Origin: a virus
Lineage: Duplodnaviria; Caudoviricetes
DNA length: 35,734 nt
Virus record (IMG/VR): IMGVR_UViG_3300012952_000052
Location: 1-35,734 of that record
Direction: 5' to 3' (one strand)
Part shown: positions 3,033 to 33,060 of the stretch, in pieces
Numbering within the stretch: the stretch's first letter is position 1
How the letters are laid out: every line of letters begins with the position of its first letter
Program-made: the position numbers and the translations under genes
Notes under the pieces: generated by a model
What the model saw: only the letters and a program-made list of their open reading frames with translations
Databases searched by the model: none
Told to the model about the DNA's origin: nothing

Positions 3033-4225
3033 TTTTCCAAACAATCGATGATAAAAGCGAATGTATCGGAATATACGCGGAAGGCAAACTACATTATGAA
3101 AATTTTCCAACTGATTTAACGCGCACATGGCGCTACACGGGCTCTCTTGATAAAGAGGATATAGAATATGGGTGGTTATGGGGAAATGGGCTCACGTTAG
3201 AACAAGCGTGCCCCGAAGATTTGGCCGAAGCCTACAAAAAGTCCCAAAAACGTCTGCAGGCGTATCTAAAATCCTTTCAGTTAGGCAAGATTAACATGCG
3301 AGAGCATTGTATTTTTGATTTAGTGCCGGAAGACTTCCTCATGGAATTCTGCGATATCAAAAATAGAATCACTCAACATGTGTTTGAAACATATGAAAAG
3401 CCTGAGAGCTATGAACACTTGTCGGCCATTGATCGCTTATTGTACAAGATTAAATACCAAGAGCTAAATCTTAATAATGAAAACTGTAGGGAATTGTACT
3501 ATTCTTCCCGTTCCCGTGCAAAAGCGACGGAGTTAATAAACAACTATCGCTATGTGGATTACAATCTATTTGGCACCGTCACAGGGCGCCTCACCACACG
3601 CAAAAAGTCTTTTCCTATCCTTACCGTCAAAAAAGAATTTCGGAAGCTCTTAAAGCCAAATAACGAATGGTTCTTGTCATTGGACTATAATGCCGCGGAA
3701 GCTCGCACTTTCTTGGCGTTAGCAGGGCACTCGCAGCCTAATGAAGATATTCATGCATGGAATATGAAAAATGTTTATCATGATAGCGGTGAAACAGCAA
3801 CACGCGAAGATGCCAAAGTTAGATTTTTTGCATGGCTTTATGATCCTAACTCCGATGATGTAAGTATTGAGAATGTCTATGACAAACAAAAAGTACTTGA
3901 CCTTTATTACAAAGAAGGATATATTAATACAACCTTTGGGCGTTCGATTCGCGTCGATCCTCCGAAAGCGTTGAATTACTTGATTCAGAGCACTACAGCT
4001 GATCTGGTGCTGGAGAGGGCGGTAGCGATGGATAAGTTTTTAGAAAATCATAAATCGTTCGTTTCTCATATTGTTCACGATGAGATTGTGGTTGATTTGG
4101 CTGACGACGAGCGAGATCTGGTGCCACATCTTAAAGAGCTATTTAGTGCTAATAAGCTCGATCAATTTCAAGTTAACTTATCGTGTGGCTTTAATTATTA
4201 CGATCTGAAAGAGTTAAAGATATGA
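3029..4225 (+). CDS. polA: minimal family A DNA polymerase (palm/fingers only, thumb largely deleted)
   Basis: Motifs TVTGRLTT, motif A LSLDYNAAEAR, motif B REDAKVRFFAWLY, ALNYLIQSTTADL and motif C IVHDEIVV; only 398 aa. Confidence 0.85.
   Translation: MIFQTIDDKSECIGIYAEGKLHYENFPTDLTRTWRYTGSLDKEDIEYGWLWGNGLTLEQACPEDLAEAYKKSQKRLQAYLKSFQLGKINMREHCIFDLVPEDFLMEFCDIKNRITQHVFETYEKPESYEHLSAIDRLLYKIKYQELNLNNENCRELYYSSRSRAKATELINNYRYVDYNLFGTVTGRLTTRKKSFPILTVKKEFRKLLKPNNEWFLSLDYNAAEARTFLALAGHSQPNEDIHAWNMKNVYHDSGETATREDAKVRFFAWLYDPNSDDVSIENVYDKQKVLDLYYKEGYINTTFGRSIRVDPPKALNYLIQSTTADLVLERAVAMDKFLENHKSFVSHIVHDEIVVDLADDERDLVPHLKELFSANKLDQFQVNLSCGFNYYDLKELKI
3897..3925 (+). promoter_or_regulatory. internal sigma70-type promoter TTGACC-17-TATATT within polA
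   Basis: -35 at 3897-3902, -10 at 3920-3925; lies about 300 nt upstream of the tubulin-like gene. Confidence 0.45.
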
Positions 4226-5085
4226 TTTCAATTGTAGGACTCGGCACTGCCGCCTCGGCGATCGCCGCTAAATTCGAAGGGATCTCCAATTATCAGGTTT
4301 ATTATCTTAATGATAAAATCGAGAAGACCCACAAGTATAACTTTAAATTAGAGAAGTATGATACGCCAGAAGAATACGAACAACACATACCAGACGTGAG
4401 GAAGACTTTCAAGTCGCTCACCGAACGCGTTCAATTCTTTGTGACCGGTGCCTCCATGAGTTCAAATTATTGTTTAGGTATTTTGGAGCAAATTAAAGAT
4501 AAAGAAATTGATGTATTTTATATCAAGCCTGATACGGAATTGTTAACGGGCCTTCCCAAGTTAATGGAAAACATGGTTTTTGGAGTCCTGCAAGAATATG
4601 CACGCTCTGGGCTTCTGCGTTCGGTTACGTTGGTTTCTAACGCAAATTTAGAGAACACGCTGACCGAAATTCCAATTAAGACTTACTACGATACACTTAA
4701 TACTTCGATCTTTTCTACGGTCCACTATCTAAATTATTTTGAATTCACAGAGCCCGAAATCGGGCAAGTGTCCCGACCATCAGAAATTAATCGCATTCGT
4801 ACGATTGGAATGTTGAATATCAAAAATCTTGAAGAAAAATGGCTTTTTGATCTTGACATGGAACGCGACCTGTGTTATTATATATGTATAAATGAGAACA
4901 GATTAGCAACCGAGGGTGGTTTGCATCGGAGAATCGTCGACATGTTGAAGAAAAAGCCAAAGAATGCATTTCGACGGATTTCGTACGCAATCTATGAAAC
5001 CCCACTAGAAGACTTTGGGTTTTGCGTTGCCCACACTAACGCAGTACAAACACAAAAAACTCTTGACTCTTTAGAGACAGAGTGA
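4222..5085 (+). CDS. divergent tubulin/FtsZ-superfamily protein (PhuZ/TubZ-like) with a degenerate signature motif
   Basis: N-terminal ISIVGLGTAASAIA resembles the T1 loop. VQFFVTGASMSSN sits at the GGGTGS/TG position, followed by DVFYIKP and SVTLVSNANL (cf. LIVIdNd.L) and YYDTLN. Confidence 0.65.
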   Translation: MISIVGLGTAASAIAAKFEGISNYQVYYLNDKIEKTHKYNFKLEKYDTPEEYEQHIPDVRKTFKSLTERVQFFVTGASMSSNYCLGILEQIKDKEIDVFYIKPDTELLTGLPKLMENMVFGVLQEYARSGLLRSVTLVSNANLENTLTEIPIKTYYDTLNTSIFSTVHYLNYFEFTEPEIGQVSRPSEINRIRTIGMLNIKNLEEKWLFDLDMERDLCYYICINENRLATEGGLHRRIVDMLKKKPKNAFRRISYAIYETPLEDFGFCVAHTNAVQTQKTLDSLETE

Positions 5086-5091
5086 TATACT
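5063..5091 (+). promoter_or_regulatory. sigma70-type promoter TTGACT-17-TATACT with extended -10 (TG) for the SSB gene
   Basis: -35 at 5063-5068, TG at 5083-5084, -10 at 5086-5091; AAGGAG RBS follows. Confidence 0.75.
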
Positions 5092-5117
5092 TTATTCACA
5101 AAAGGAGAAATTGAATA

Positions 5118-5885
5118 ATGTCAATTGATATGGAGCTTATGCGTCGCAAGCTCGCAACTTTGCGCGGCGAAACTAAGAGTGACTCAACATCGGTATGGTT
5201 TAGGCCAGACGAGGGAGACACTGATATTCGGATCATTCCCACTAATGACGGAGATCCACTGAAGGAAATGTTCTTTCACTATAATGTTGGAGATCATAAG
5301 GGCGGTGTCCTGTGTCCCAAGCGCAATTATGGTGAGCATTGTCCTATCTGCGAATTCGCTTCCTCGCTATGGCGAGAAGGAAGTGATAACAACGACGAGG
5401 AGAGCAAGAAGCTAGCAAAGTCACTCTTTGTGCGCACCCGCTATTTCAGCCCCGTAGTTGTACGTGGACGAGAAGACGAAGGGATTAAGGTATACGGCTA
5501 CGGTAAGACCGCATACGAACTCCTTCTCGGCTACATCCTTGATCCCGAGTACGGTGATATTACGGATGTAAAGGAGGGTACTGACATTACTCTCACTTAC
5601 ACCAAGCCCACCAAGCCGGGAGCATACCCCCAAACAAGTCTGAAGATGCGTCGAAACACCTCTCCTCTATTGAGTGATGTGGAAGCGACACCCGCCCTCC
5701 TTGATCGCATGCCAGAGTTTGATACGCTCTTTGAGCGTTTGAGTTCTGCGCAAGTCGACGCAATTCTTGATGAGCAACTGGCCGGCGATGGTAGTGCCGA
5801 GAGCCGATCATCGGAAACCACTAAGTATGCTGGCACGCAAACTAGTGAAGTAGACCGCGCCTTCGATGAACTGATGAGCGGTTAG
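5118..5885 (+). CDS. single-stranded DNA-binding protein, T4 gp32-like
   Basis: WFRPDEG..IRIIP, Zn-binding H...CP...CPICE, VKVYGYGK-like segment, DITD..EG.D, acidic C-terminal tail ending AFDELMSG. Confidence 0.9.
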   Translation: MSIDMELMRRKLATLRGETKSDSTSVWFRPDEGDTDIRIIPTNDGDPLKEMFFHYNVGDHKGGVLCPKRNYGEHCPICEFASSLWREGSDNNDEESKKLAKSLFVRTRYFSPVVVRGREDEGIKVYGYGKTAYELLLGYILDPEYGDITDVKEGTDITLTYTKPTKPGAYPQTSLKMRRNTSPLLSDVEATPALLDRMPEFDTLFERLSSAQVDAILDEQLAGDGSAESRSSETTKYAGTQTSEVDRAFDELMSG

Positions 5886-5898
5886 GACCCGGACTTGG

Positions 5899-5934
5899 CC
5901 CGCTGGCAGACCGGGAAAAGTCTGCCACATTTTT
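5899..5934 (+). terminator. stem-loop/pseudoknot with a short U tract downstream of the SSB gene
   Basis: TGGCAGAC (5904-5911) pairs with GTCTGCCA (5920-5927), followed by CATTTTT. Loop CGGG can also pair with CCCG at 5899-5902. Confidence 0.65.
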
Positions 5935-5944
5935 AATTAGTTGC

Positions 5945-5973
5945 TTGACAATACAAAAAGCATTTGATATAAT
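5945..5973 (+). promoter_or_regulatory. perfect-consensus sigma70 promoter TTGACA-17-TATAAT
   Basis: -35 at 5945-5950, -10 at 5968-5973. Confidence 0.9.
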
Positions 5974-6070
5974 AAGAATATCTTCTCAACAGAAGATGAG
6001 TACCAAATCTCTATTGCTACGGCCCGGAGATTTTAGACATAAACACGCGATTCGCGAAAAGGAGAAATAA

Positions 6071-7180
6071 ATGTCGACCCAACTCAAAACAGTCCCCCAA
6101 CAGGCTTATATTGTTGGAACAACCATCCGACCAGGGTTCAATGGTCAGGGAACTATCGATCTAAACGATTATGCAGGAATGGTGCCACCCACGTTTGAAG
6201 GTTGCACTTTTTCTCACTTTACGTTTCTTGATTTGACTACGGTTAATATCGATACTGAAAGCTTTGCTAACCTTGGAATTCGTGAAGAATTTGAAGGCGA
6301 TGATGGCAATCGTATCGACGAACTTGAAGTCTCTTTTGAGAACAACGGGTTTGAAACCGTTGACTGGCCCCCATCAATTGATAATCTTGGTGGATTCATT
6401 GATGGTCGTGGGCGCACCACAGGTGCTCTCAATCGCAACGAGCGATGGATTCCTGTCGCGGTTTATGACCGTGATGATTTTTCGGTTTCAAGCACTGTTA
6501 CCAACGGAATCAAGGGCAACCTCGGAGGACGCCCACAGCGTAGTGCTTCGTTTCGTGACATTGTTAATGGAGGAGTTCACTTGGTCAATGAAGGTGAGCT
6601 TAAGCCAACAGTTAGCGATGTTAACAACTGGTTGAAGAAGCGTCTTGAATTGTGGAGATTCTTCAAGGCTGATTTGATCACGAAAATGCAGCAAGCTATT
6701 GTTGAAGAAAGCACGCGTGATGAATCGTTGATTCTGCGCAAGAAGACTAGTTCGTGGCACGCGTGGATTAAGCGCAACCTTGGACTTGACGAGAAGGCTG
6801 GTGATTACGTATTGGTAAATGCGTCTTCATCCTCGTATCAGACGTATATTCAACGTCTGTGGTGTGAGAGCATCCTTCCGGCTATCATCGACGGTTCGGA
6901 TCCGGTAGATGTGATCTTTTATACTAGTCACTATCGACCTTCAAAGGCTCGGGATGGACTGCAAAAGTCCATTGAAAAGCTGGACCAACTGTACGACATG
7001 TCATTTAGTCTTGTCAAGAGTCACCTCAAGAGTTCGGGTATCGATCTCGATGCAGTCTTGGCTGCAACAGGTACTCAACTTAACAGTGATAAGCCTTTCA
7101 ATATCATTGGAGCATGTCCGCAGATTGTTAGCGATCACGAATTTGAAAGCGGCAAGTTGATTGATGTGACTAGCTACTGA
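6071..7180 (+). CDS. hypothetical protein with a probable ParB/Srx-like N-terminal domain
   Basis: IDELEVSFENNGF...WPPSI...FIDGRGRTTGAL...WIPVAVY resembles the ParB-N pattern 'L..SI...G...P.....iDG..R..A......iP..v'; AAGGAG RBS. Confidence 0.55.
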   Translation: MSTQLKTVPQQAYIVGTTIRPGFNGQGTIDLNDYAGMVPPTFEGCTFSHFTFLDLTTVNIDTESFANLGIREEFEGDDGNRIDELEVSFENNGFETVDWPPSIDNLGGFIDGRGRTTGALNRNERWIPVAVYDRDDFSVSSTVTNGIKGNLGGRPQRSASFRDIVNGGVHLVNEGELKPTVSDVNNWLKKRLELWRFFKADLITKMQQAIVEESTRDESLILRKKTSSWHAWIKRNLGLDEKAGDYVLVNASSSSYQTYIQRLWCESILPAIIDGSDPVDVIFYTSHYRPSKARDGLQKSIEKLDQLYDMSFSLVKSHLKSSGIDLDAVLAATGTQLNSDKPFNIIGACPQIVSDHEFESGKLIDVTSY

Positions 7181-8064
7181 TGAAGACTCCGTTACGATAT
7201 CCCGGCGGCAAAAGTCGTGCTGTGAATACGTTAATGGACTACATCCCTGATGATTGTGGGGAGCTTTGCTCCCCCTTTCTCGGGGGTGGTTCGTTTGAGC
7301 TAGCTTTGGCAGCGAAGGGTGTAAAGATACACGGATACGATGCCTTTAAGCCAATCGTATGGTTCTGGCAGGCACTACTAAAAAACCCTGCGAGATTAGC
7401 TCAATTGGCCGATGCGACCAAGACCCGAAGACCGCGCAAATACGTATATCAAGGTAAAGAATATAAAGCACGAGGCTTGCTAAAGAAAGACTTTGAGCGA
7501 TTCCGTGACGAAATCCGGTTTGCGCTGAAGATGAAGCATCCCTTCACTTTTGAATCGGCTGCTAAAGTATATGCCATTAATCGGAGTAGTTTTTCGGGAG
7601 CTACATTTGCCGGGGGCTTTTCCGAGAGAGCTTCTTATGCGCGATTCACAGATAATCAAATTGAAGCAATTAGAAACTTTAAGGTAGATAATTTTACGGT
7701 AAAACATGCTGATTTTAAAGACTCAATGAAAAAGCATGATTGTCATTTCTACCTTGATCCTCCCTACTTCTTGTCTGGCGCAAGAAACAAATTGTATGGA
7801 GACGAGGGCGATATGCATGAGTTTTTCCCTCATTTGGCGTTATTCTCCGAATTACGAAAAAGAGAGAACTGGGTTTTATCGTACAATGACTGTCCCGAGA
7901 TTAGAGAACTCTATCGCGACTATAAGATTCATAAGGCCCAGTGGACTTACGGAATGAACAAATCAAAAGAATCGTCAGAAATTATTATTACCAACTTGCC
8001 TGAGCGCAAACACTATGTTATACTAAATGAAACCAAAGGAGTAAACAATGGCACGCAAAGCTAA
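7180..8064 (+). CDS. dam: D12-class N6-adenine DNA methyltransferase (Dam-like)
   Basis: PLRYPGGKSR, motif I PFLGGGS, NRSSFSG, catalytic YLDPPY, WVLSYND, EIIITN. Confidence 0.9.
   Translation: MKTPLRYPGGKSRAVNTLMDYIPDDCGELCSPFLGGGSFELALAAKGVKIHGYDAFKPIVWFWQALLKNPARLAQLADATKTRRPRKYVYQGKEYKARGLLKKDFERFRDEIRFALKMKHPFTFESAAKVYAINRSSFSGATFAGGFSERASYARFTDNQIEAIRNFKVDNFTVKHADFKDSMKKHDCHFYLDPPYFLSGARNKLYGDEGDMHEFFPHLALFSELRKRENWVLSYNDCPEIRELYRDYKIHKAQWTYGMNKSKESSEIIITNLPERKHYVILNETKGVNNGTQS
7996..8024 (+). promoter_or_regulatory. sigma70-type promoter TTGCCT-17-TATACT (extended -10) for recA
   Basis: -35 at 7996-8001, TG at 8016-8017, -10 at 8019-8024, inside the dam 3' end. Confidence 0.65.
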
Positions 8065-9205: not shown

Positions 9206-9214
9206 GAGAAAAAC

Positions 9215-9484: not shown

Positions 9485-9496
9485 TTAAAAAACTGA

Positions 9497-9525
9497 TTGA
9501 CTTTACCCTCCGGATTGGTTATAAT
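9497..9525 (+). promoter_or_regulatory. sigma70 promoter TTGACT-17-TATAAT for uvsE
   Basis: -35 at 9497-9502, -10 at 9520-9525. Confidence 0.8.
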
Positions 9526-9553
9526 AAGATATAATCATGAAGGAGGGTTTTTC

Positions 9554-11460: not shown

Positions 11461-11474
11461 AATTTCGTTTGAGA

Positions 11475-14904: not shown

Positions 14905-15192
14905 TTGTTTAAACCAGTTAATAGATATATGCAAATAAATATACCAAAACCAAAGCCGCAAACGGCAAGCGGTCTTTTGCTCCCCGAAGATTACAAGCCA
15001 GCAGAAGAAAGGCACATAACAGCAGAAGTGGTTGCGTACGCTGCAGATGTGAGGTTTAAGGATCAGTTGGTGATGTGTGGCGGCAAAGGCGCATCTGTCA
15101 TCGTCGATAAGTCGATGATTGAAGAAATATCAGTAAATAATGAGAAAATAAACATTGTTCTTGATAATTATGTTGTGGGCATAATTAACTAA
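14905..15192 (+). CDS. groES: GroES-like co-chaperonin
   Basis: FKPVNRY..I....QTASGLLLP (mobile loop) ...AEVVA; 95 aa; ends with VVGII. Confidence 0.75.
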   Translation: MFKPVNRYMQINIPKPKPQTASGLLLPEDYKPAEERHITAEVVAYAADVRFKDQLVMCGGKGASVIVDKSMIEEISVNNEKINIVLDNYVVGIIN

Positions 15193-15205: not shown

Positions 15206-16123
15206 ATGACTATTGACAAGAACTTTTACAATGAAGCGTCAGCAGCTAAATTGGGGTGGGATCCAACATGGTTTGGAGAAAAATACTTCGATGATAAGTT
15301 AACGCGCGCCATTAAGAAATGGCAGAAAGAGAATCGCTTAGTCTCCGACGGACTCTGTGGTCCAGCCACATTTCGCCGGCTTTGGACTGCGCGCCAGTCC
15401 GATATTGACGATTATAAGCCCGAGGAATGTAAGTATTCTAACTATATCGTCCAGAATGGGAATTTCATTCCTATCAAGTGGGATAAGGTTGTGTTATGGT
15501 CCGAAAGCGGGGGGATGAAGGCTGAGGCTGGAAATTACTATGATTATACCGGTAGACCTCTACGCAAAATCAGATACTTTGTTAACCACTGGGATGTGTG
15601 TTTGAGTTCTCGCTCTTGTCAACGGGTTCTTGACAAGCGAGGTATTTCTGTGCATTTTCTTATCGACAATGATGGCACCATTTACCAGACTTTAGACATG
15701 CAACATGGCGCATGGCACGCGGGTTCCGAAAGAGCCAACCGTGCTTCCGTAGGAGTGGAGATCTCTAACGCCTATTATCTCAAATATCAAGATTGGTACG
15801 AGCGCAACGGCCATGGCACACGACCAATTGTCGAAGATGCCTGGGTGCATTCCACCAAGCTAGAGCCGTTTCTCGACTTCTATCCGGTACAAATTGAAGC
15901 CCTTAAGGCTCTATGGAAAGCCATCCACGAAGGAGTGGACATTCCTTATGAAGCGCCGTTAGGTCAGTTTGGCAACACTTCTACCAAATATGAACAGCAT
16001 GTAAAATACGGAGACTTTACGGGATTTGTTAGTCATTATCATGTAAGCAAGCGCAAGATTGACTGTGCGAATTTAGATCTCAAGAAACTACTGGATGAAT
16101 TAAAGAGCGATTGTGATTCTTAA
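15206..16123 (+). CDS. endolysin: peptidoglycan-binding domain plus N-acetylmuramoyl-L-alanine amidase (Amidase_2)
   Basis: AIKKWQ....VSDGLCGPAT (PG_binding_1); VNHWD, SVHFLIDNDGTIYQ, AWHAG..AN..SVGVEI, VSHYH...KIDC. Confidence 0.88.
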   Translation: MTIDKNFYNEASAAKLGWDPTWFGEKYFDDKLTRAIKKWQKENRLVSDGLCGPATFRRLWTARQSDIDDYKPEECKYSNYIVQNGNFIPIKWDKVVLWSESGGMKAEAGNYYDYTGRPLRKIRYFVNHWDVCLSSRSCQRVLDKRGISVHFLIDNDGTIYQTLDMQHGAWHAGSERANRASVGVEISNAYYLKYQDWYERNGHGTRPIVEDAWVHSTKLEPFLDFYPVQIEALKALWKAIHEGVDIPYEAPLGQFGNTSTKYEQHVKYGDFTGFVSHYHVSKRKIDCANLDLKKLLDELKSDCDS

Positions 16124-16979
16124 CTATGACGTGGTTGTAGTAGGCAATGATTTCGACGCAATACTTTACGCATTCACACATCAGTTGCCTCTTATTAACA
16201 CCGCCTTCCAGCGGCCTTTTCGGTTTGATTACTGCTCAGATCATTATGATTGGGGGTGCGTTAAACTTTCCAGCTGCTTAAGTCGAGAGGTAGTTACACA
16301 CGATCAAGTTTATCAGACCGGCATTCCTAAAGAACTTTTATGGGAACGCCTTCTTTTCCTGATGGGGCTCAATGGGCTGCTACCCGTTGGGGGCATAGAC
16401 ACGTCAATTCGGTGGCGGAATGACAATACTATCGTTGCTTCCGGTGAATATGCAAAAGTGGCCGAGATTACCTATGAAGAATGTCACATAATAAATCAAA
16501 AACCCCTTGAAAGCAGTAAGATAACATGTTATGATTGGATTGCTTTTAATCGTGGAGGTAAACATGAGATTGATCTCATTGAAACCGCTGACGAGTTTGT
16601 AAATCATATATGGTTTTATCCATCAGATCGTATCAGTGGCAATACCGGCGTGAAAGACGCTTGTGCTGTTTCGTACTTGACTGCTGAACAGATTCTTAGC
16701 TTTGATTACGCTGAAACAATGGCGCGCTTTAAGGTGGTCCACGAGATGAAAGCACGAGGAATGAAAGGATTATACAATGGTTTATCACCCACAGGCGTTC
16801 CTAAATATTACGACTTTAAAACTAGTTTTATTGCTCGCGACAGAAGCACGAAATTACAGCGCGCATTCACACCGCCCACGACGAAAAGTATTCAACATAA
16901 AATGGAAACAGAGGAGAATTTATTCGCATCTGTATCATCGGCTTGTGTGGGATACGATAGATTTCTAAAGCATTTATGA
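16113..16979 (+). CDS. hypothetical protein with a degenerate Rossmann/FAD-binding-like N-terminus
   Basis: YDVVVVGNDFDAILYA mimics 'YDVvVvGgG.aG...A' but lacks the later glycines. Confidence 0.55.
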   Translation: MILNYDVVVVGNDFDAILYAFTHQLPLINTAFQRPFRFDYCSDHYDWGCVKLSSCLSREVVTHDQVYQTGIPKELLWERLLFLMGLNGLLPVGGIDTSIRWRNDNTIVASGEYAKVAEITYEECHIINQKPLESSKITCYDWIAFNRGGKHEIDLIETADEFVNHIWFYPSDRISGNTGVKDACAVSYLTAEQILSFDYAETMARFKVVHEMKARGMKGLYNGLSPTGVPKYYDFKTSFIARDRSTKLQRAFTPPTTKSIQHKMETEENLFASVSSACVGYDRFLKHL

Positions 16980-17875
16980 ATACCGCATCCCATATGGCAG
17001 GTATCATTCCTGTGGCCAATCTTCAAACAGATTTAGAGGCGCCATTCGACCCCGTGTTAACCCTGGTTGCTCCCGGTTATACGGCTATTCAAAAATCCGT
17101 ATTAGAGTGCGCCATCGCTGGCTGTCGGACTATATGGATCGTCTGTGGAGATGACACCGCTCCTATTATACGCAAGATAGTGGGCGAATGGATCTTCGAC
17201 CCGGTATACCTTTCTCGGCCACATGTGCGCTTTCCTTCCGAGCATCAACGCGAGATTCCTATTTATTATGTCCCTATTCATCCTAAAGATATGGATCGCC
17301 GTGATTCGTATGGCTGGTCTGCGCTTTATGGGATAGCTTCCGCATGGCGCGTGGCATCGAAGATCTCGCGGTGGCTATTGCCAGATAAGTATTTCATTTC
17401 ATTTCCGTTGGGACTACATAATGTTTACGGACTGCGGCCATTACGCCAACAGATCTCTAGCACCGAAGGGAATTTCTTCCTATCTCACAAGGAACAAACT
17501 GTATTGGATAATTTGCCATTAAGCTTTACCATGTCAGGTGATGATTTTTTACAGTGCCGGCGCCAGGTTAATAGTTTAACTACAAAAGAATACTACAATA
17601 CCGACGAGCAATATCCTAGCGAAAAGTTACCGCTAAGCGAAAGATGGTCTGCACGCCACTTCGATTTCGCTACGGTTTTTGGACCGACAGATCGAACCAA
17701 CGCAGTTGACCATGAAGTAGACTGGTATTATGATGCTAGCCAGTGGGAAGAATATCGGAATTATTTGGGCTCAGAAAATTTCATTAAAAAACCAGCAAAG
17801 ATCTTGACACAGCCGCGTAGACATGCTAAATTAACATATACACAGGAGGGAAGTGTTGAAGAAATCGAAGATTAA
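16976..17875 (+). CDS. divergent sugar-phosphate nucleotidyltransferase-like (GT-A fold) protein
   Basis: AGIIPVAN...PFDPVLTLV...AIQKSVLECAIAGCRTIWIV follows the RmlA/GalU N-terminus but has no GGxGTR; WYYDASQWEEY matches the 'w.D.gt.e.y' end motif. Confidence 0.6.
   Translation: MNTASHMAGIIPVANLQTDLEAPFDPVLTLVAPGYTAIQKSVLECAIAGCRTIWIVCGDDTAPIIRKIVGEWIFDPVYLSRPHVRFPSEHQREIPIYYVPIHPKDMDRRDSYGWSALYGIASAWRVASKISRWLLPDKYFISFPLGLHNVYGLRPLRQQISSTEGNFFLSHKEQTVLDNLPLSFTMSGDDFLQCRRQVNSLTTKEYYNTDEQYPSEKLPLSERWSARHFDFATVFGPTDRTNAVDHEVDWYYDASQWEEYRNYLGSENFIKKPAKILTQPRRHAKLTYTQEGSVEEIED
17804..17832 (+). promoter_or_regulatory. sigma70-type promoter TTGACA-17-TAAATT (extended -10) for dnaE
   Basis: -35 at 17804-17809, TG at 17824-17825, -10 at 17827-17832; AGGAGG RBS downstream. 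Confidence 0.65.
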
Positions 17876-20800
17876 ATTTGTGGGACTCCACGCACACTCA
17901 GTCGCGGGGTCTATTTTTGATGCCATTGGTTATCCGCAGGACCATATGGATTTTTGTTATGAGAATGGCGGAGAAGCATTGGCTCTAACCGATCATGGAA
18001 ACATGAACGGGTTAGCCTATCAGGTTTTGCATGCCAAGAAGATGCACGAAAGCGGCCGCGACTTCAAGCCTATCTATGGGTGCGAAGCGTATTTCATTCC
18101 ATCACTAGAAGAATGGCGAGAGGAATATGAGAAGGCGATGGAGGACAAGAAGCGCGCAAGGTCTATTAAGAAAACTGATCAATCCGGCGCCACTGTCGAA
18201 GATGAAGGCAGCAGCAAGAAGGTGCAGGATATCCTCCGCCGGCGAAGACATCTTGTGTTGTTGGCACAGAACCAGACAGGGCTCAACAACCTCTTTAAAT
18301 TGGTATCCGAGTCTTACCAGCCAGAAAACTTTTATCGCTATCCACGCATTGACTACGCGCTCCTAGAGAAGTACAACGAGGGTATCATCGCCGCGTCTGC
18401 GTGTTTGGGTGGAGTATATGCCGGAAACTATTGGGAGAATCGAGAGGAAGGTGATCAAGCTGTACTGGATGCAATGTCAGAGACGACTCAGAAAATGAAG
18501 GACATCTTTGGCGATCGCTGGTACGCCGAGGTGCAGTGGAACAACATTGATGACCAGCACAAGTTGAATCAATTCGTTATCCAAACAGCCCAAGAACATG
18601 ACGTTAAACTTATTACAACGGCCGACAGTCATTATCCAAATCCAGACGCATGGAGAGATCGAGAACTGTATACCCGTTTAGGTTGGCTCGGCAAAGGCGG
18701 CTTGCCAGAATATATGGAGTCAGATCTTCCCGAAGGTGTGGAAGAAGTGGGTTATGAACTCTATCCCAAGAATGGGGATCAGATGTGGGAGAGCTACAAG
18801 AAGTATGCCACAGAAGGAGGCTTTGAATATGATGACAAGCTCATCCTCCAGAGCATTGAGGAAACGCACCATATCGCGTTTGAGCGTATCGAAAAGTTCT
18901 TCCCTGACAATACGGTCCAACTACCAAATTTCGTGGTGCCGGCCGGCTTCACGGCGACTCAGGCACTGGTACAGTTTGCTCTAGAAGGATTGAAAGAGCG
19001 AGGCATGCATGAAGATCCGGAATATGTCCAAAGGCTCAAGCATGAACTAGATGTTATTGATGACCGAGGCTTCTCTAAGTATTTCTTGACGATGAAGTCT
19101 ATCGCCGATGTGGCATCCACAATGATGCTTACTGGTCCTGGCCGCGGCTCGGCTGCTGGGTCGCTCGTAGCCTACGCACTAGGTATTACACAGGTTGATC
19201 CTATCAAGTATGGGCTCCTCTTTTCTCGTTTCTTGCGTTCCGACGCTAAGGATTATCCAGATATCGATTATGATGTGTCAGATAGTATGGCGCTCAAGGA
19301 GAAGCTGGTGGATATGTGGGGTAAAGATTGTGTAGCTCCGATTTCTAACTGGAACACACTCCAGTTGAGATCATTGATTAAGGACATCTCAAAGCTGTAT
19401 GATATACCCTTTACTGAAGCCAATACAGTGACGTCAGTTATGATGCGCGAGGCTACTCCCGAAGCTAAGAGAAAACACGGGATCAAGGCGGGTGTTTATA
19501 CTCCTACCTGGGAAGAAGTCATGGAGTACTCCGCTTCTCTCCAGAAGTATTTGAACAAATATCCGGCCGTCAAGTCACATGTTGAAGGATTGGTGGGGCA
19601 AGTACGTTCATGTTCACGGCATGCTGGTGGCGTCGTTATTGCCGAGAACCTAGACAGCAACATGCCTCTGATTAATTCCGGCGGTGTGCGTCAAGCTCCG
19701 TGGGCTGAAGGGCAGAACGTTAGGCATCTGGAGCCCATGGGTTTCATTAAATTTGATTTGCTCGGACTCTCGACACTCAAAATGATGGAGGGTGCGATCT
19801 ACCACATCTTGCGCCGTCATCATGGGATTCAAGAACCAACCTTTTCGCAGATTAGTGATTACTACACTGAGAACCTGCACCCTGATAAGCTGAATATGTC
19901 CGATCGGTCGGTATATGAGAATATTTTTCATCCAGGCAAGTGGGCTGGAATCTTTCAGTTCACTGAGCACGGGGCTCAGAACTTCTGCACCAAAGTAAAG
20001 CCTAATAGTATCATTGATATTTCGGCTATTACTTCTATCTTTCGACCGGGACCATTATCCGCTGGTGTGGATGCCGATTACGTGGAGGCAAAAGAGCATC
20101 CTCACTATGTTTCCTATTTGTCGGAAGAGGCCCGAGAGATCACCGAAGAAACCTTTGGGTTTCTCATTTTTCAGGAGCAGATTGCGCTCTTAGGGCACAA
20201 GCTCGGAGGATTGACTCTAGACGAAGGCAATCTTCTGCGGAAAGTTCTCACGAAGAAGGGGACAGGAAAGAATAGCGTTAAGGGAAGACTGCACAAGAAG
20301 TTTATCACGGGCTGTGTTGAAAAGGGAATCGCCAGAGACGCCGCTCAGGATCTATGGGATAAGTTTGAGTTCTTCTCTGGCTATGGTTTCAACAAATCAC
20401 ACGCGGTTAGTTATTCTATTATCTCTTTTCAATGTGCATGGCTGTTTAACTACTACCCGGCAGAATGGATGGCGGCGTTCTTGGACAAGGAGCCCGAGAG
20501 ACGCAAGGAAAAGGCAATTAATATCGCCAAGAAGTTTGGATTTAAGATCGCTCCCTTGGATGTGAACAAGTCTGGTGTAGTGTGGGAGATTAGTGAGGAT
20601 GGAAAAACACTCATTCAACCCCTCACTTCTATCAAGGGACTGGGAATGTCGGCCATCGAGCAGATTCTAGAGAATCGCCCGTTCACAAATGCCGAAGACC
20701 TGCTCTTTCGGGAGGAGATCATCTACAGCAAACTCAATAAGAAGGCGCTAGACGCACTCTGTCGCGGGGGCGCTCTCGATGAAATTGTGGATGATCGCTT

Positions 20801-21278
20801 CACGGGTAGAAAACACTTTTGGTCTGCTTGTATCGTGGACCGTCCAAAAAATCCCAAGAGATTTTCTGAGAATTTGGAACTTTACCGACCCGAAGGGGAT
20901 TTTAGTGAGGAAGAGATCATTCAGTTTAAGACCGATTTGACGGGTGTTTTCCCCATTAACCTCGTAATCCGTCCCGATACTGTACAACGTTTGCAAGAAA
21001 AATTTGTCCCACCAATCTCTGAGTTTGATCCCGGGCTGCAGCTTTGCTGGTTCATTCCCCGAAAGATTACACCTAAGAAAACAAAGAACGGCAAGAACTA
21101 TTGGGTGGTTGAGGTTATTGATTCCAACAATGAACTTACTAGAATTCGATGCTGGGGTGTAAAGCCGGAAAAGGATCGGATTCATTTAAATCGCCCCTAC
21201 ATGGCTCGGTTAAAGTATGACGAGAACTGGGGATTTTCCACCTATGCGGTGGGTAAGACATTTAAACTCCTAGGATGA
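17853..21278 (+). CDS. dnaE: DNA polymerase III alpha subunit (family C)
   Basis: PHP domain LHAHS, ALTDHG, TADSHY; GPGRGSAAGSLVAY; catalytic PDIDYD; HAGGVVI; KFDLLGL; YGFNKSHA. No intein-sized insertion. Confidence 0.96.
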   Translation: MLKKSKIKFVGLHAHSVAGSIFDAIGYPQDHMDFCYENGGEALALTDHGNMNGLAYQVLHAKKMHESGRDFKPIYGCEAYFIPSLEEWREEYEKAMEDKKRARSIKKTDQSGATVEDEGSSKKVQDILRRRRHLVLLAQNQTGLNNLFKLVSESYQPENFYRYPRIDYALLEKYNEGIIAASACLGGVYAGNYWENREEGDQAVLDAMSETTQKMKDIFGDRWYAEVQWNNIDDQHKLNQFVIQTAQEHDVKLITTADSHYPNPDAWRDRELYTRLGWLGKGGLPEYMESDLPEGVEEVGYELYPKNGDQMWESYKKYATEGGFEYDDKLILQSIEETHHIAFERIEKFFPDNTVQLPNFVVPAGFTATQALVQFALEGLKERGMHEDPEYVQRLKHELDVIDDRGFSKYFLTMKSIADVASTMMLTGPGRGSAAGSLVAYALGITQVDPIKYGLLFSRFLRSDAKDYPDIDYDVSDSMALKEKLVDMWGKDCVAPISNWNTLQLRSLIKDISKLYDIPFTEANTVTSVMMREATPEAKRKHGIKAGVYTPTWEEVMEYSASLQKYLNKYPAVKSHVEGLVGQVRSCSRHAGGVVIAENLDSNMPLINSGGVRQAPWAEGQNVRHLEPMGFIKFDLLGLSTLKMMEGAIYHILRRHHGIQEPTFSQISDYYTENLHPDKLNMSDRSVYENIFHPGKWAGIFQFTEHGAQNFCTKVKPNSIIDISAITSIFRPGPLSAGVDADYVEAKEHPHYVSYLSEEAREITEETFGFLIFQEQIALLGHKLGGLTLDEGNLLRKVLTKKGTGKNSVKGRLHKKFITGCVEKGIARDAAQDLWDKFEFFSGYGFNKSHAVSYSIISFQCAWLFNYYPAEWMAAFLDKEPERRKEKAINIAKKFGFKIAPLDVNKSGVVWEISEDGKTLIQPLTSIKGLGMSAIEQILENRPFTNAEDLLFREEIIYSKLNKKALDALCRGGALDEIVDDRFTGRKHFWSACIVDRPKNPKRFSENLELYRPEGDFSEEEIIQFKTDLTGVFPINLVIRPDTVQRLQEKFVPPISEFDPGLQLCWFIPRKITPKKTKNGKNYWVVEVIDSNNELTRIRCWGVKPEKDRIHLNRPYMARLKYDENWGFSTYAVGKTFKLLG

Positions 21279-21939: not shown

Positions 21940-22641
21940 GTGGGCGCTTATAAACGACTACGATGGAAACAAGCTCTTAACCAGTATCGGTTTATTAAAG
22001 AAGAGCAAGAAATAGTGCAATCGTTAGGGCGTGAAGCTGCTCCCTTGTTTCAGCAGCATTATGAAGGCTTTTTAGTGCGACATGACATTGATTTGGAAAA
22101 GCTTAATCAGCAGAATGCCGATCGTATCCAAGAAGCCTACAATATCACGGAGTCCGAGTGGGGTGACGTGCCAGCCCCCGCCGAAGGGGCGTCTTGCACG
22201 CAAGTAATGGCCGCGACGTCGACTCAAGAAAAAACAGAAGAACAACAACTGAGCGAAGATGAGCACATTATACATCAAATCTTTACTAAACTTTTTAAGA
22301 CGATTGCCGTTAAGGTGCATCCTGATAAGATTAATGTATATGATTATGACTTTCATGAGAGAGAGCAGATGACTAAAGATTTCCGCGATGCCAATACGGC
22401 GCTTAAAGATAGAAATTATTTTGTTCTTTTAGATATGGCCGAGAGACTTAGTATCCCCCTTCCAAAAAACTATGAACAACAGACTCGGTGGATGAAAACT
22501 GAGATTCGAAAAGCACAAGATCAACTAGCGGCACAAAAAAGAACTTACAATTATCTGTTTGCAGCTGCTGAAACGGACGAAGAAAAAGATAACGTCATTC
22601 GTCAATTTGTTCAGCAACTTTTTGGATTAAATTTATCTTAA
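21940..22641 (+). CDS. J-domain (DnaJ-like, HPD) protein
   Basis: KLFKTIAVKVHPDKIN...EQMTKDFRDANTAL fits helix II-HPD-helix III; the J-domain is internal. Confidence 0.75.
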   Translation: MGAYKRLRWKQALNQYRFIKEEQEIVQSLGREAAPLFQQHYEGFLVRHDIDLEKLNQQNADRIQEAYNITESEWGDVPAPAEGASCTQVMAATSTQEKTEEQQLSEDEHIIHQIFTKLFKTIAVKVHPDKINVYDYDFHEREQMTKDFRDANTALKDRNYFVLLDMAERLSIPLPKNYEQQTRWMKTEIRKAQDQLAAQKRTYNYLFAAAETDEEKDNVIRQFVQQLFGLNLS

Positions 22642-26049: not shown

Positions 26050-26068
26050 GTCTTTAGTGGAACAAACC

Positions 26069-26077: not shown

Positions 26078-26117
26078 TTTTGAGTTAACGTAACTGTACT
26101 TTTAAGGAGAAAAACTA

Positions 26118-26912: not shown

Positions 26913-26913
26913 T

Positions 26914-26942
26914 TTGACTTTCATAGAGTAAGATGATACAAT
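26914..26942 (+). promoter_or_regulatory. sigma70 promoter TTGACT-17-TACAAT (extended -10)
   Basis: -35 at 26914-26919, TG at 26934-26935, -10 at 26937-26942. Confidence 0.7.
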
Positions 26943-26976
26943 AACCACTGGGAGCAATCCAAGTGGTTATTTTTTT
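26941..26976 (+). terminator. intrinsic terminator
   Basis: ATAACCACT-G-GGA-GCAA-TCC-A-AGTGGTTAT hairpin with a GNRA loop, followed by a T run. Confidence 0.8.
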
Positions 26977-26985
26977 AGGTGGTGT

Positions 26986-27396
26986 ATGGAATACATTTTA
27001 TATTTGCTAATTTTTATATTCGGATATTTTACTTGCAGGGCTGTTTACTTTCTTCGCTCATTAACAACAAGCATGGCATTGATTCGCTTGTCGCAATTAG
27101 TGGCGCTTTCGATTTTTGCCAAAACATTGGAAGACATTCATTATGCGCGAGTGGCTAAAATGGAAGGCATGCTAAAGAATAAAGAAAGTGAACACAATGT
27201 CCAGGCATTTGTATATCGTTTTGAGGACGAGATAGCTAGTTATAAGAGAAGGTGTATTAAAGATTTAATCGCCCTCCACCCGCAGATGTTCCAAGGAACT
27301 GTACAGTTTGATGATTGGAAGTCTGCCATGCAATTTTTAAACGATCACAGACCGGTCGTCGAACACATATTAAGAGGGGAACCCACCAATGATTAA
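26986..27396 (+). CDS. membrane-anchored hypothetical protein
   Basis: N-terminal hydrophobic helix ILYLLIFIFGYF; overlaps the next clpP start. Confidence 0.7.
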   Translation: MEYILYLLIFIFGYFTCRAVYFLRSLTTSMALIRLSQLVALSIFAKTLEDIHYARVAKMEGMLKNKESEHNVQAFVYRFEDEIASYKRRCIKDLIALHPQMFQGTVQFDDWKSAMQFLNDHRPVVEHILRGEPTND

Positions 27397-28015
27397 GAAA
27401 CTAAAAGAGGCCATTACCTCGATAGCAACACCAGGGGAGGGCGAGCCAGACGTTATCTTGGTCCAAGCCCCAGGTCCTAAAGAGCCTGAACTGCAGATGA
27501 TTGGACTTTTTGCTGAAGTAGTAGAAGAGAAGATTGCTGAAGTGGTGCATGCGATGTTATATCTTAATGAAGTCAATAAAGGCAAAAGTGCAAAAGCCAA
27601 GCAGCCGATTGAATTTTATATTTCGACCTACGGCGGTTCGGCTGATGATATGTTTGCGCTTTATGATATAATGAGATTAGTGCGCGAAGATACTGACATC
27701 AGCACTGTGGGTTTAGGAAAGGTAATGTCGGCCGGTGTGCTGTTGTTGGCGGCTGGCACCAAAGGAAAGCGCAAGGTTGCCCGCAATTGTCGGATTATGA
27801 TCCATTCAGTGATTGGAGGCAATCACGGTAGTTTGCATAATATGATAAATGAGATGGAGGCTATCGAGCAACTGCAACAAATGTACTCAGATTGTTTAGT
27901 ATCGGAAACAAAAATCACAAAAACACAGCTGAAAAAAATGTTAGAACGTAAAGTAAATGTCTATTTATCAGCAGAAGAAGCGGTCGAATATGGAATCGCC
28001 GACATTATTGTATAA
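27389..28015 (+). CDS. clpP: ClpP-family serine protease (copy 2, apparent Ser-His-Asn)
   Basis: YISTYGGS...ALYDIM, GKVMSAG (Ser), IMIHS (His), VNVYLSAEEAVEYGIAD (Asn at the Asp position). Confidence 0.88.
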   Translation: MIKKLKEAITSIATPGEGEPDVILVQAPGPKEPELQMIGLFAEVVEEKIAEVVHAMLYLNEVNKGKSAKAKQPIEFYISTYGGSADDMFALYDIMRLVREDTDISTVGLGKVMSAGVLLLAAGTKGKRKVARNCRIMIHSVIGGNHGSLHNMINEMEAIEQLQQMYSDCLVSETKITKTQLKKMLERKVNVYLSAEEAVEYGIADIIV

Positions 28016-28023
28016 GGAATCCA

Positions 28024-29763: not shown

Positions 29764-29765
29764 GC

Positions 29766-29794
29766 TTGACAATAGGCGCGTCAGGGATTATAAT
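29766..29794 (+). promoter_or_regulatory. perfect-consensus sigma70 promoter TTGACA-17-TATAAT for groEL
   Basis: -35 at 29766-29771, -10 at 29789-29794. Confidence 0.9.
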
Positions 29795-29816
29795 ATAAAC
29801 TAACCTAAGAGGAAAC

Positions 29817-31388: not shown

Positions 31389-31395
31389 ATAAGAA

Positions 31396-31608
31396 ATGGA
31401 ATTAATAGAGGGTGATTTAGTTTATATACCACAAGATGTGTTGTTGTATAATTTGCAATCGGGATCTAAGCGGTTTAGAACCGACAAGCCCACAACTGCG
31501 ATTTTTCTTAAGGAGGAGCCCAACTCCACAGTTAAAGTATTTGTAGACGGTAGTGAGATGATTGTGCGAAAAAATCATATATACATAATGGAGAAAAGAT
31601 GCTCGTAA
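31396..31608 (+). CDS. small hypothetical protein (SH3-like beta pattern)
   Basis: EGDLVYIP...AIFL...VKVFVDG alternating beta strands. Confidence 0.6.
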   Translation: MELIEGDLVYIPQDVLLYNLQSGSKRFRTDKPTTAIFLKEEPNSTVKVFVDGSEMIVRKNHIYIMEKRCS

Positions 31609-31889
31609 AATTAACAGAGGTATGTAACAATGCGGCCGTTACCAGTCGTCACCAATACACTTTAAGAGATATATTTATCAACCCGGAACACGTTGTGATG
31701 ATTCGGGAAGAGCGACGGTTGCGTGAGATCAACGAGGGCGGCGGTGTGCTAGCTGGGCTCGACACTAATCATCGTTTTTCTAAACTCACCCTCAACAGAG
31801 GAACTACCGGCACAGAAATCGTAGTGATCGGCGCACCAGAAATAATCGAAACCCAATTGAAAAGCAGCAAAGTACTGCTTAAAGGATAA
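31599..31889 (+). CDS. hypothetical protein (FlbD-like 'INP.hi..i.E' pattern)
   Basis: MLVKLTEV...IFINPEHVVMIRE...IVVIGAPEII; GGAG RBS. Confidence 0.6.
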   Translation: MLVKLTEVCNNAAVTSRHQYTLRDIFINPEHVVMIREERRLREINEGGGVLAGLDTNHRFSKLTLNRGTTGTEIVVIGAPEIIETQLKSSKVLLKG

Positions 31890-31892
31890 GCT

Positions 31893-32330
31893 ATGAGTTC
31901 ACCTAGAGTTAATATTCAATATTCCGTTAGTGTGGAAGATTTGCCAGACGAAATTAGCCGTCTCGTAACAAAGGCTACTCATCTTCAAATGCAGATGAGC
32001 GAGGAGTGTGGACAACTTAATACCGCCGATCCAGACACTTTATGGAGCGCCGCATACGTTGGCGATATACAAAACTGGAGAGCGTATTTGGTGGAAATCG
32101 ATCACACTTTGAAAGATGTTGAAAACTTAGTTAAGTCGTATCTATCCCAAATGGGGTCCTCAGCTCACACTGCCGTAGAGAACACACCCACTCCTTCTCC
32201 CTCGTTGCCGCTGAAGGGCCTCCCGTTGCCCTCCCCGGGGGATTTGGACCATTTGATCGAGAATTTTCAAGAACGCATTGAATCTCCAAGAGAGGAAGGG
32301 CATGAAATCACCCCTGAAGCCTCTCCATAA
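31893..32330 (+). CDS. hypothetical protein
   Basis: ORF with AAGGA RBS; helical N-terminus and Pro-rich C-terminus. Confidence 0.7.
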   Translation: MSSPRVNIQYSVSVEDLPDEISRLVTKATHLQMQMSEECGQLNTADPDTLWSAAYVGDIQNWRAYLVEIDHTLKDVENLVKSYLSQMGSSAHTAVENTPTPSPSLPLKGLPLPSPGDLDHLIENFQERIESPREEGHEITPEASP

Positions 32331-33060
32331 TTCTTTAGCCAGTGGTTATCTTAGAAACAAGGTGGGACAGAAACAGATAGTCGACTCTTTCTTTTTTTTT
32401 GATGGCAACTATGAATGTATGCTAGCACAGCAGAATAATTTTGTTATCGGACATACCACGGCATATACGGTAGGAGAGTTTTGGACATCTTTAGAAGAGT
32501 CGCGTCCTTGGATCGAGGGAGTGTGTGAGGATGTAAGCAACATTCTCCATAAACCTGTTTTTGAGCTACTGCAAGACACATGGCACACTCAAGATACATT
32601 ATTCATTCGCAGCGCGTTATTCTTTTTATTGAGTCGCTGTTCAACAAAGGGGTTGCCTTCGTCGGGAGAACTCTTGACAGAAGGTTTAAGTCCGATGGCT
32701 TTTAAGTACTTGCGAGAGTTGAAGACAGAGAATTTACACTTTATTCATCACTCAGAGTCGGATCCTATAGACGTGATACAACCATCTCGCGCTAATAGTA
32801 TTATTTTGATGAATTTGGGCTCTTATGGGCACGGATTAACTCAAGGACCCGTGAATCTAGGGGTGGAGGAGACTTTTATTGACCACCGCAACGTGAGAGA
32901 AAAACTTTTTTCTATGAAGAATCCGTGGATTGTGAATTATACATATAGCAATGCAGTGACAGATTTGTATCGTTCCCAAGATGTTGTTTTACTTGACATG
33001 TATGGAAACAAAACGCAGGAGAAATCAGAAGCCCGCGAGGTAGTAATTGCTAACTTCTAA
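32302..33060 (+). CDS. catalytically degenerate D12/Dam methyltransferase paralog
   Basis: Colinear with the 7180 Dam (MKSPLK/MKTPLR, FWTSL/FWQAL, SALFFLLSRCS/AAKVYAINRSS, WIVNY..LYR/WVLSY..LYR, EVVIANF/EIIITNL), but motif I reads FFFFDGN and DPPY reads NLGSY. Confidence 0.7.
   Translation: MKSPLKPLHNSLASGYLRNKVGQKQIVDSFFFFDGNYECMLAQQNNFVIGHTTAYTVGEFWTSLEESRPWIEGVCEDVSNILHKPVFELLQDTWHTQDTLFIRSALFFLLSRCSTKGLPSSGELLTEGLSPMAFKYLRELKTENLHFIHHSESDPIDVIQPSRANSIILMNLGSYGHGLTQGPVNLGVEETFIDHRNVREKLFSMKNPWIVNYTYSNAVTDLYRSQDVVLLDMYGNKTQEKSEAREVVIANF

What the first reader, a model, noticed from the sequence alone, without database searches (positions are those of the whole stretch)
4222..33060. A set of full-length pseudoenzymes with only the ligand-binding loops removed
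Seen: four intact ORFs keep family-typical scaffolds but lack the glycine-rich or catalytic motif. These are the tubulin-like protein (4222, no GGGTG), the Rossmann-like protein (16113, GNDFDA for GxGxxG), the nucleotidyltransferase-like protein (16976, no GGxGTR) and the Dam-like protein (32302, no FxGxG or DPPY). None has stops or frameshifts, and each overlaps a neighbouring gene. Inference: this lineage repeatedly exapts enzyme folds as structural parts, decoys or inhibitors of host counterparts rather than losing them.
Basis: partly seen in the sequence, partly recalled or inferred. Interest (0 to 1): 0.7.

Follow-up and report, generated by a model that had tools for sequence, protein, structure and literature searches.

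The report
Four conserved dead-enzyme phage genes
A widespread group of uncultured, probably marine, phages keeps four intact genes under strong selection whose proteins resemble tubulin, a flavin enzyme, a DNA methylase and (likely) a sugar-nucleotide transferase but lack the usual catalytic motifs in every relative checked, and three of them sit right beside DNA polymerase genes, so they likely serve as non-catalytic helpers of phage DNA replication (untested).

Summary
Four intact ORFs of a T4-like phage (relatives 187-203 kb) have no Pfam or PHROG hit, yet derive from enzymes. Tubulin/FtsZ (VIA Z 23.6) and GR2 flavoprotein (Z 12.3) come from AlphaFold models, Dam from profile searches (E 2e-8). 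The nucleotidyltransferase call rests on ~70 N-terminal residues only (E 4e-4). Canonical motifs are absent family-wide: GGG[TS]G 0/176, GxGxxG 0/126, GxG[TS]R 0/76, DPPY 0/46. Pooled dN/dS is 0.06-0.13 (control genes 0.03-0.11). Three families occur in 6/6 complete relatives, the Dam-like in 5/6. Corrections: more than loops were lost; the tubulin keeps two invariant Asn at the guanine/ribose positions (mapped by eye), so it may still bind nucleotide; overlap is ordinary here (30/38 genes). The three core genes flank polymerases (PolA-tubulin-SSB 63/64; flavo-NTase 73/73, then DnaE 58/60), away from the virion block. Best reading: exapted non-catalytic replication accessories, with the Dam-like a SAM-free DNA binder; function untested. 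The principle is published for poxviruses. This scan already reported the tubulin member three times on other DNA; look-ups for the other three returned nothing.

The parts
4222..5085 (+). Minimal tubulin/FtsZ-fold protein; T3, T4 and T7/H8 degenerate or lost; T1 glycines and two invariant Asn (140, 160) kept; family-specific invariant QxYxRS (124-129)
   Evidence: AF2 pLDDT 91.2; Foldseek FtsZ E 2e-12; VIA CetZ Z 23.6, rmsd 4.1, 265 aligned; tallies over 176 sequences
16113..16979 (+). Shrunken GR2-type flavoprotein fold without GxGxxG; new conserved polar set in domain 2 (D141, H151, R173, K181, D182, S187, K207, R242)
   Evidence: AF2 pLDDT 91.8; Foldseek geranylgeranyl reductase-like 3oz2 E 1.5e-7; VIA 2ivd Z 12.3, rmsd 4.2, 238 aligned; tallies
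16976..17875 (+). Likely sugar-phosphate nucleotidyltransferase derivative; GxGTR absent, Arg position mostly Asp; near-invariant DxxRRDS (105-111), R157, RWS (223-225)
   Evidence: hhalign N-terminal E 2e-4 to 1.5e-3; ESM lead; tallies
32302..33060 (+). Dam (D12-class) derivative without GGK, FxGxG or DPPY; target-recognition helices (R103, L-[NS]-R-C-S, G122) kept
   Evidence: tallies over 46 genes
3029..4225 (+). Context: short PolA, likely divPolA1 type, overlapping the tubulin-like gene by 4 bp
   Evidence: Pfam DNA_pol_A; tblastn to immuto phage PolA E 1e-6; synteny 63 of 64
5118..5885 (+). Context: gp32-like SSB directly after the tubulin-like gene
   Evidence: Pfam gp32; 63 of 63
17853..21278 (+). 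Context: DnaE (Pol III alpha) directly after the flavo-like/NTase-like pair
   Evidence: Pfam; 58 of 60
7180..8064 (+). Context: intact Dam paralog (FLGGG, DPPY), internal control
   Evidence: Pfam MethyltransfD12 E 2e-26

Best explanation
These are four old, strongly selected phage genes derived from enzymes (tubulin, flavoprotein, Dam and likely a nucleotidyltransferase) that lack the ancestral catalytic motifs and likely work as non-catalytic binding proteins, three of them probably as accessories of the phage's DNA replication machinery. Shown: intact ORFs, three folds, family-wide motif loss, purifying selection, and fixed position beside polymerase genes. Inferred: (1) the ancestral chemistry is dead (about 0.85); (2) the tubulin-like protein is co-translated with the short PolA and SSB and is a GTPase-dead scaffold that may still hold a guanine nucleotide; (3) the flavo-like and NTase-like proteins are co-translated with DnaE and act on or with the Pol III replisome through their new conserved charged patches, much as vaccinia A20, a dead ligase, serves as processivity factor; (4) the Dam-like protein, a subclade-specific gene, binds DNA through its retained recognition domain without SAM, as a regulator or site shield.
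For: Motif loss: GGG[TS]G 0 of 176, GxGxxG 0 of 126, DPPY/FxGxG/GGK 0 of 46; GxG[TS]R 0 of 76 against 62 of 71 canonical controls. Pooled dN/dS over disjoint pairs: 0.085, 0.127, 0.059, 0.064; 12 control genes 0.027-0.111. Tubulin-, flavo- and NTase-like each in 6 of 6 records at least 90% complete. Synteny: PolA upstream of tubulin-like 63 of 64, SSB downstream 63 of 63, flavo-like upstream of NTase-like 73 of 73 (median overlap 4 bp), DnaE downstream 58 of 60. In complete relative G005 the recognisable head, tail and baseplate genes lie at about 75-143 kb and the four genes at 155-183 kb among replication and chaperone genes. No beta clamp or gp45 clamp was detected in 5 of 5 complete genomes, which leaves room for other accessories. 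The Dam-like is in 5 of 6 complete genomes but the intact Dam in only 3 of 6, and three genomes hold the dead one with no D12 Dam detected.
Against: No function, expression or interaction is shown. Adjacency in a phage early/replication block is weak evidence, as many unrelated genes sit there. The phage may simply use the host beta clamp, and a divergent phage clamp could be missed. Each family has invariant polar residues that could be a new active site. The NTase fold rests on ~70 residues. Residue mapping onto FtsZ beyond T1 is by eye: hhalign aligned only T1. The Dam-like gene is not near a polymerase and has only 4 usable pairs for dN/dS. The cultured relative immuto_3-5A has PolA...SSB with two short ORFs between them and gave no tblastn match to the tubulin-like protein, so this PolA type can do without it.
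Confidence: 0.5

Rival explanations
1. Decoys or inhibitors of host counterparts: the tubulin-like protein caps FtsZ (or the phage's canonical tubulin) filaments by offering a nucleotide face without a T7/H8 face; the Dam-like blocks host methylase or restriction sites; the other two poison host oligomers.
For: The model has no H8 between residues 175 and 192 and no T7 aspartates, while T1/T6/H7 residues are kept. A canonical tubulin lies elsewhere in 5 of 6 complete genomes (three of these were found through that gene).
Against: Identity to cellular structures is only 8-16% and the invariant patches are family-specific, not host-like. Complete genome G002 has the degenerate tubulin without the canonical one. 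The fixed 4-bp coupling to PolA is not needed for a decoy.
Confidence: 0.2
2. Not dead but changed: they keep ligand binding (nucleotide sensors or sponges) or run new chemistry, for example a flavo-like + NTase-like pair modifying nucleotides for DnaE.
For: Tubulin N140 and N160 176 of 176, aromatic residue at 156 in all 176, G8 175 of 176. Flavo-like G11 125 of 126 and near-invariant D141, R173, K181, D182, S187, R242. NTase-like R108, R109, R157, R223 70 of 70.
Against: The phosphate- and metal-handling residues are the ones lost, with charge reversal in the NTase (Arg to Asp in 58 of 70). Bulky aromatics fill the Dam SAM loop. The flavoprotein's second and third glycines, beta-2 acid and ATG site are not kept.
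Confidence: 0.2
3. Virion structural proteins, as with several dead enzymes in poxvirus cores.
For: Published precedent (10.1101/2022.11.22.517515); three families are core genes.
Against: They lie outside the head/tail/baseplate block of G005, among replication genes.
Confidence: 0.08
4. Decaying pseudogenes or chance motif misses.
For: Pfam, PHROG and NCBIfam give no hit to the ancestral families.
Against: Hundreds of intact orthologs (1081, 505, 563 hits), dN/dS 0.06-0.13, fixed synteny.
Confidence: 0.01

Closest known systems
Exapted inactivated enzymes of orthopoxviruses (Mutz et al., 10.1101/2022.11.22.517515; abstract and Discussion read)
   Same: Enzyme folds kept, catalytic sites disrupted, homology mostly visible only by structure; 16 cases, including processivity factor A20 from a ligase.
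   Different: Eukaryotic virus and different folds; here a bacteriophage, and the genes cluster with polymerases rather than core proteins.
Tubulin/FtsZ superfamily: FtsZ, TubZ, CetZ, PhuZ (PDB hits); FtsZl1/FtsZl2 (PMC2875224, passages read)
   Same: Whole two-domain fold (Z 16-24); T1 glycines and, by eye, the T6 and H7 Asn.
   Different: No GGGTG(S/T)G, which FtsZl1/2 keep; no T3 glycines; no T7 Asp or H8; about 280 aa.
GR2 flavoproteins (protoporphyrinogen oxidase, renalase, geranylgeranyl reductase); Rab GDI/REP as known non-enzymatic members (status recalled; both appear at Z 9.6-9.9)
   Same: Topology over ~240 residues.
   Different: Much shorter, FAD fingerprint lost, different conserved residues; unnamed viral relatives in BFVD (A0A516M785 E 4e-23).
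Glucose-1-phosphate nucleotidyltransferases RmlA/GalU/GalF; inactive relatives such as GMPPA and eIF2B-gamma (recalled, no call)
   Same: N-terminal strand-loop-helix-strand; best single match is E. coli GalF (E 1.5e-3), itself annotated as low activity.
   Different: GxGTR, Lys and (by eye) the LGDN Asp are replaced; the remaining ~230 residues are not aligned with confidence.
Dam/DpnM (D12 class) adenine methyltransferases; pseudo-methyltransferases such as METTL14 (recalled)
   Same: Full-length homology, recognition-domain helices.
   Different: No SAM motif I, motif II acid or DPPY; present without an active partner in 3 of 6 complete genomes.
divPolA1 phage group (Yutin et al., PMC11188092, passages read)
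   Same: 155-190 kb phages with a short PolA with dead exonuclease followed by replication genes.
   Different: The main text has 0 occurrences of 'tubulin'; the four families were not seen in the passages read.

Membership tests
Tubulin/FtsZ superfamily | GTPase + C-terminal activation domain fold | tested here: met
   Foldseek E 2e-12, TM 0.68; VIA Z 23.6
Tubulin/FtsZ superfamily | T4 signature GGGTG(S/T)G | tested here: not met
   0 of 176
Tubulin/FtsZ superfamily | T7 catalytic NxDxxD/E and helix H8 | tested here: not met
   Ser/Ala at the Asp positions, Pro186, no helix 176-191 in the model; mapping by eye; a loose regex matched 4 of 176
Tubulin/FtsZ superfamily | Guanine/ribose contacts (T1 Gly, T6 Asn, H7 aromatic + Asn) | tested here: inconclusive
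   G8 175, N140 176, N160 176 of 176; equivalence to E. coli N165/F182/N186 by spacing only
Tubulin/FtsZ superfamily | GTP-dependent polymerisation | not testable with these tools
   needs protein
GR2 FAD-dependent oxidoreductases | Fold | tested here: met
   Foldseek E 1.5e-7 (TM 0.46); VIA Z 12.3, 238 aligned
GR2 FAD-dependent oxidoreductases | GxGxxG plus acidic residue after strand 2 | tested here: not met
   0 of 126; GxG 18 of 126; acid 5 or 29 of 126 at the two candidate positions
NTP_transferase (RmlA/GalU) family | GT-A-like fold over the whole domain | tested here: inconclusive
   only ~70 N-terminal residues align; no model made
NTP_transferase (RmlA/GalU) family | GxGTR...K pyrophosphate motif | tested here: not met
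   0 of 76; control 62 of 71
Dam / D12 adenine methyltransferases | Full-length homology and motif order | tested here: met
Dam / D12 adenine methyltransferases | Motif I FxGxG and motif IV DPPY | tested here: not met
   0 of 46 each
Exapted viral pseudoenzymes | Intact and under purifying selection | tested here: met
   dN/dS 0.06-0.13
Exapted viral pseudoenzymes | Catalytic inactivity and a new function shown | not testable with these tools
   inferred from motifs only

The most novel reading that the evidence does not exclude
This abundant phage lineage runs a two-polymerase replisome (short PolA plus DnaE) whose accessory subunits are built from dead metabolic and cytoskeletal enzymes: a GTP-binding, non-hydrolysing tubulin that scaffolds or positions PolA/SSB, and a flavoprotein/nucleotidyltransferase pair standing in for clamp-type processivity functions.
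Probability: 0.15. Interest if true: 0.85.

Novelty: new variant of a known kind. Interest (0 to 1): 0.58.

Why it matters
Exaptation of dead enzymes is documented for poxviruses; my paper searches found no such set for a bacteriophage. These are large families (hundreds to over a thousand 90%- or 50%-identity clusters) invisible to Pfam, PHROG and NCBIfam, so they name a slice of phage dark matter. A selected tubulin without T4/T7, fixed beside a polymerase, makes testable what the tubulin fold does without GTP hydrolysis. The four proteins are small and predicted well folded (two modelled), so biochemistry is simple, but no cultured phage in the collection carries the two that were searched.

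Tried and rejected
Pfam and PHROG scans of the four ORFs: no hits; NCBIfam: none to the ancestral families; member-wise Pfam scans of the flavo-like and Dam-like alignments: only scattered single-member hits. Profile searches of PDB sequences found nothing relevant for the tubulin-, NTase- and flavo-like families; cysteine synthase at E 0.011 was rejected against the structure. hhalign of tubulin-like against FtsZ and of flavo-like against E. coli Glf aligned only the first strand and helix, so the idea that the flavo/NTase pair descends from a glf-rfbA sugar operon has no support here. Complex prediction of flavo-like + NTase-like: no verdict. RNA runs: none was listed. Cultured-phage tblastn: no match for the tubulin- or NTase-like proteins (only E 5 noise); the flavo- and Dam-like were not searched there. 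A locus scan with the flavo-like alignment could not run. Obligate active/dead pairing was rejected for Dam (dead one alone in 3 of 6 complete genomes) and weakened for tubulin (G002). Gene overlap was rejected as evidence. dN/dS with dS up to 1.5 gave a Dam-like median of 0.35 from 9 pairs, 5 of them deeply diverged (dN 0.5-0.9); I treat these as saturated and use dS 0.03-0.7. Host not determined: the NTase-like family gave only 8 loci in 185,579 prokaryote genomes, in MAGs of unrelated taxa, probably mis-binned phage DNA. Paper searches with no relevant result.
Full report
Setting. The window is a 35.7 kb virus record carrying PolA, gp32, Dam, RecA, UvdE, 5' exonuclease, DnaB, a B12-dependent RNR, amidase, DnaE, two ClpP, IMPDH/GMPR and GroEL. 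A complete relative (G005, 203 kb, terminal repeats) has T4-type capsid, portal, terminase, sheath, tube and baseplate genes (109 of its 236 called ORFs were scanned), so this is a T4-like myovirus group. 'Marine' is inferred from Tara labels among homolog sources; the host is unknown.

Observation. The four ORFs are intact and overlap neighbours by 4 to 29 bp, but so do 30 of 38 genes in the window. None hits Pfam or PHROG. All belong to families: 1081 hits among 1640 candidates for the tubulin-like, 563 among 790 for the NTase-like and 505 representatives at 50% clustering for the flavo-like. The Dam-like gave only 5 hits by word search, but 46 distinct genes were recovered from neighbouring-gene loci.

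Folds. Tubulin-like: AF2 pLDDT 91.2; Foldseek best hits FtsZ and TubZ, E 2e-12; VIA top 16 rows all tubulin superfamily, Z 23.6 to 16.3, first unrelated row 8.9. Flavo-like: pLDDT 91.8; Foldseek geranylgeranyl reductase-like and flavin monooxygenases, E 1.5e-7, TM about 0.45; VIA protoporphyrinogen oxidase Z 12.3, 238 aligned, rmsd 4.2, with GDI/REP at 9.6-9.9. Dam-like: full-length hhalign to the window's intact Dam, 95%; the family profile finds 7m6b at E 2e-8 and E. coli Dam and DpnM at 0.017. NTase-like: only the first ~70 residues align with canonical enzymes (E 2e-4 to 1.5e-3; RfbA alone 0.066), above 30 of 30 column shuffles and above three unrelated profiles (E 0.26-0.38); ESM features point the same way at 0.90 with only 126-135 shared features. 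This fold call is likely, not proven.

Motifs across orthologs. The motif names and canonical patterns are recalled, except the tubulin signature, which is quoted in PMC2875224. Tubulin-like: GGG[TS]G 0 of 176; T4 reads G-[AS]-S-x-S-S-N with a variable residue at the Thr position; the T7 Asp positions are Ser/Ala. G8 (175), N140 (176), an aromatic at 156 (176) and N160 (176) are kept and match E. coli FtsZ N165, F182 and N186 by spacing (by eye, as hhalign did not reach them). QxYxRS at 124-129 is invariant and has no counterpart in the FtsZ sequences aligned. Flavo-like: first Gly 125 of 126, second 18, third 0 (Ala 101, Ser 22); the window's GNDFDA is an outlier of a G-[GS]-[ST]-L-x-A consensus; conservation has moved to polar residues of the second domain. 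NTase-like: GxG[TS]R 0 of 76 distinct genes (0 of 211 sequences) against 62 of 71 controls; the Arg position is Asp in 58 of 70; R108, R109, R157 and R223 are invariant. Dam-like: DPPY-type, FxGxG and GGK 0 of 46; DPPYY aligns to PVGKF.

Selection. Nei-Gojobori with Jukes-Cantor correction, my own script, disjoint pairs with dS 0.03-0.7: tubulin-like 0.085 (17 pairs), flavo-like 0.127 (13), NTase-like 0.059 (9), Dam-like 0.064 (4). Controls: intact Dam 0.111, PolA 0.069, gp32 0.065, canonical tubulin 0.045, DnaE 0.047, others 0.027-0.050. With dS up to 1.5 the medians are 0.127, 0.178, 0.098 and 0.353; the last comes from 9 pairs, 5 of them saturated. Pairs are not phylogenetically independent.

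Distribution and context. Among records at least 90% complete, the tubulin-, flavo- and NTase-like genes are each single-copy in 6 of 6. One of these records was reached through the NTase-like gene, two through a small neighbouring gene and three through the canonical tubulin. One 87%-complete record lacked the tubulin-like match, and 8 of 19 partial records lacked all three together. The Dam-like is strong in 5 of 6; G002's weak hit is its intact Dam, and in 7 viewed loci of the distant subclade the slot holds other small genes. An intact D12 Dam was found in 3 of 6 and a canonical GGGTG tubulin in 5 of 6 (the latter biased by how the records were found). Synteny is nearly fixed: PolA-tubulin-like 63 of 64, tubulin-like-SSB 63 of 63, flavo-like-NTase-like 73 of 73 within 500 bp, NTase-like-DnaE 58 of 60, and Dam-like after the 96-aa gene 45 of 45, which is largely circular because most were found that way. 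No beta clamp or gp45 was detected in 5 complete genomes.

Mechanism. The lost residues are those handling phosphates, metal, SAM and catalysis, so the ancestral reactions are probably dead. The new invariant charged patches and tight coupling to two polymerase genes suggest protein or DNA binding roles in replication, with the poxvirus A20 precedent. This last step is inference from gene order. Decoy, retained-ligand and virion readings remain open at about 0.2, 0.2 and 0.08.

Prior knowledge. Mutz et al. (10.1101/2022.11.22.517515; abstract and Discussion) report 16 inactivated enzyme derivatives in orthopoxviruses. Yutin et al. (PMC11188092; passages) describe divPolA1 with a dead exonuclease in related 155-190 kb phages and never mention tubulin in the main text; the window's PolA is likely of this type but I did not test membership, and their figure 4B and supplements, unseen, may show these genes unnamed. 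Makarova and Koonin (PMC2875224; passages) describe FtsZl families that keep the signature. Iyer et al. (PMC7824862; passages) discuss phage tubulins with no inactive form in the passages seen; supplements unseen. Searches for phage pseudoenzyme sets found nothing relevant. Earlier scan notes cover the tubulin member on three other genomes. One says most relatives lack an ordinary tubulin, which my biased sample does not bear out. Look-ups for the flavo/NTase stretch and a Dam-like member returned nothing.

Verdict. Real, conserved and selected; a new variant of a known evolutionary mode, with unnamed families and untested function. Interest 0.58.

Noticed in passing
window 27389-28015: Second ClpP: Ser and His motifs intact, but the catalytic Asp position reads Asn in 44 of 47 parsed homologs (18 of 65 unparsed), while the first ClpP keeps Asp in 27 of 27 parsed. 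Possible fifth degenerate enzyme or a ClpP1/ClpP2 heteromer.
   Followed up: partly
L276 1318-2445; L277 1039-2061 (-): Relatives carry a second, canonical tubulin (GGGGTGS, FDxxD) elsewhere in the genome, highly conserved (177 loci; best 80 at 91-100%).
   Followed up: partly
window 14905-15192: Very divergent GroES-like gene (E about 1e-4), about 14.6 kb from GroEL.
   Followed up: no
window 21940-22641: Unannotated protein with an HPD motif in a helical context, J-domain-like by eye; no family hit. Distant relatives also encode a DnaK-like ORF (L223).
   Followed up: no
L244 1-1497; L247 248-1504: Distant-subclade phages carry Cu-binding_MopE repeat proteins just upstream of the flavo-like gene; such repeats are common in myxobacteria (recalled), a weak host hint.
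   Followed up: partly
G005 about 42-64 kb (L450-L451): Large block of glycosyltransferase and nucleotide-sugar-type genes (two scanned with Pfam; the rest by eye).
   Followed up: no
window 6071-7180: 369-aa ORF with no family hit between SSB and Dam, absent from this slot in some relatives (L237, L443).
   Followed up: no
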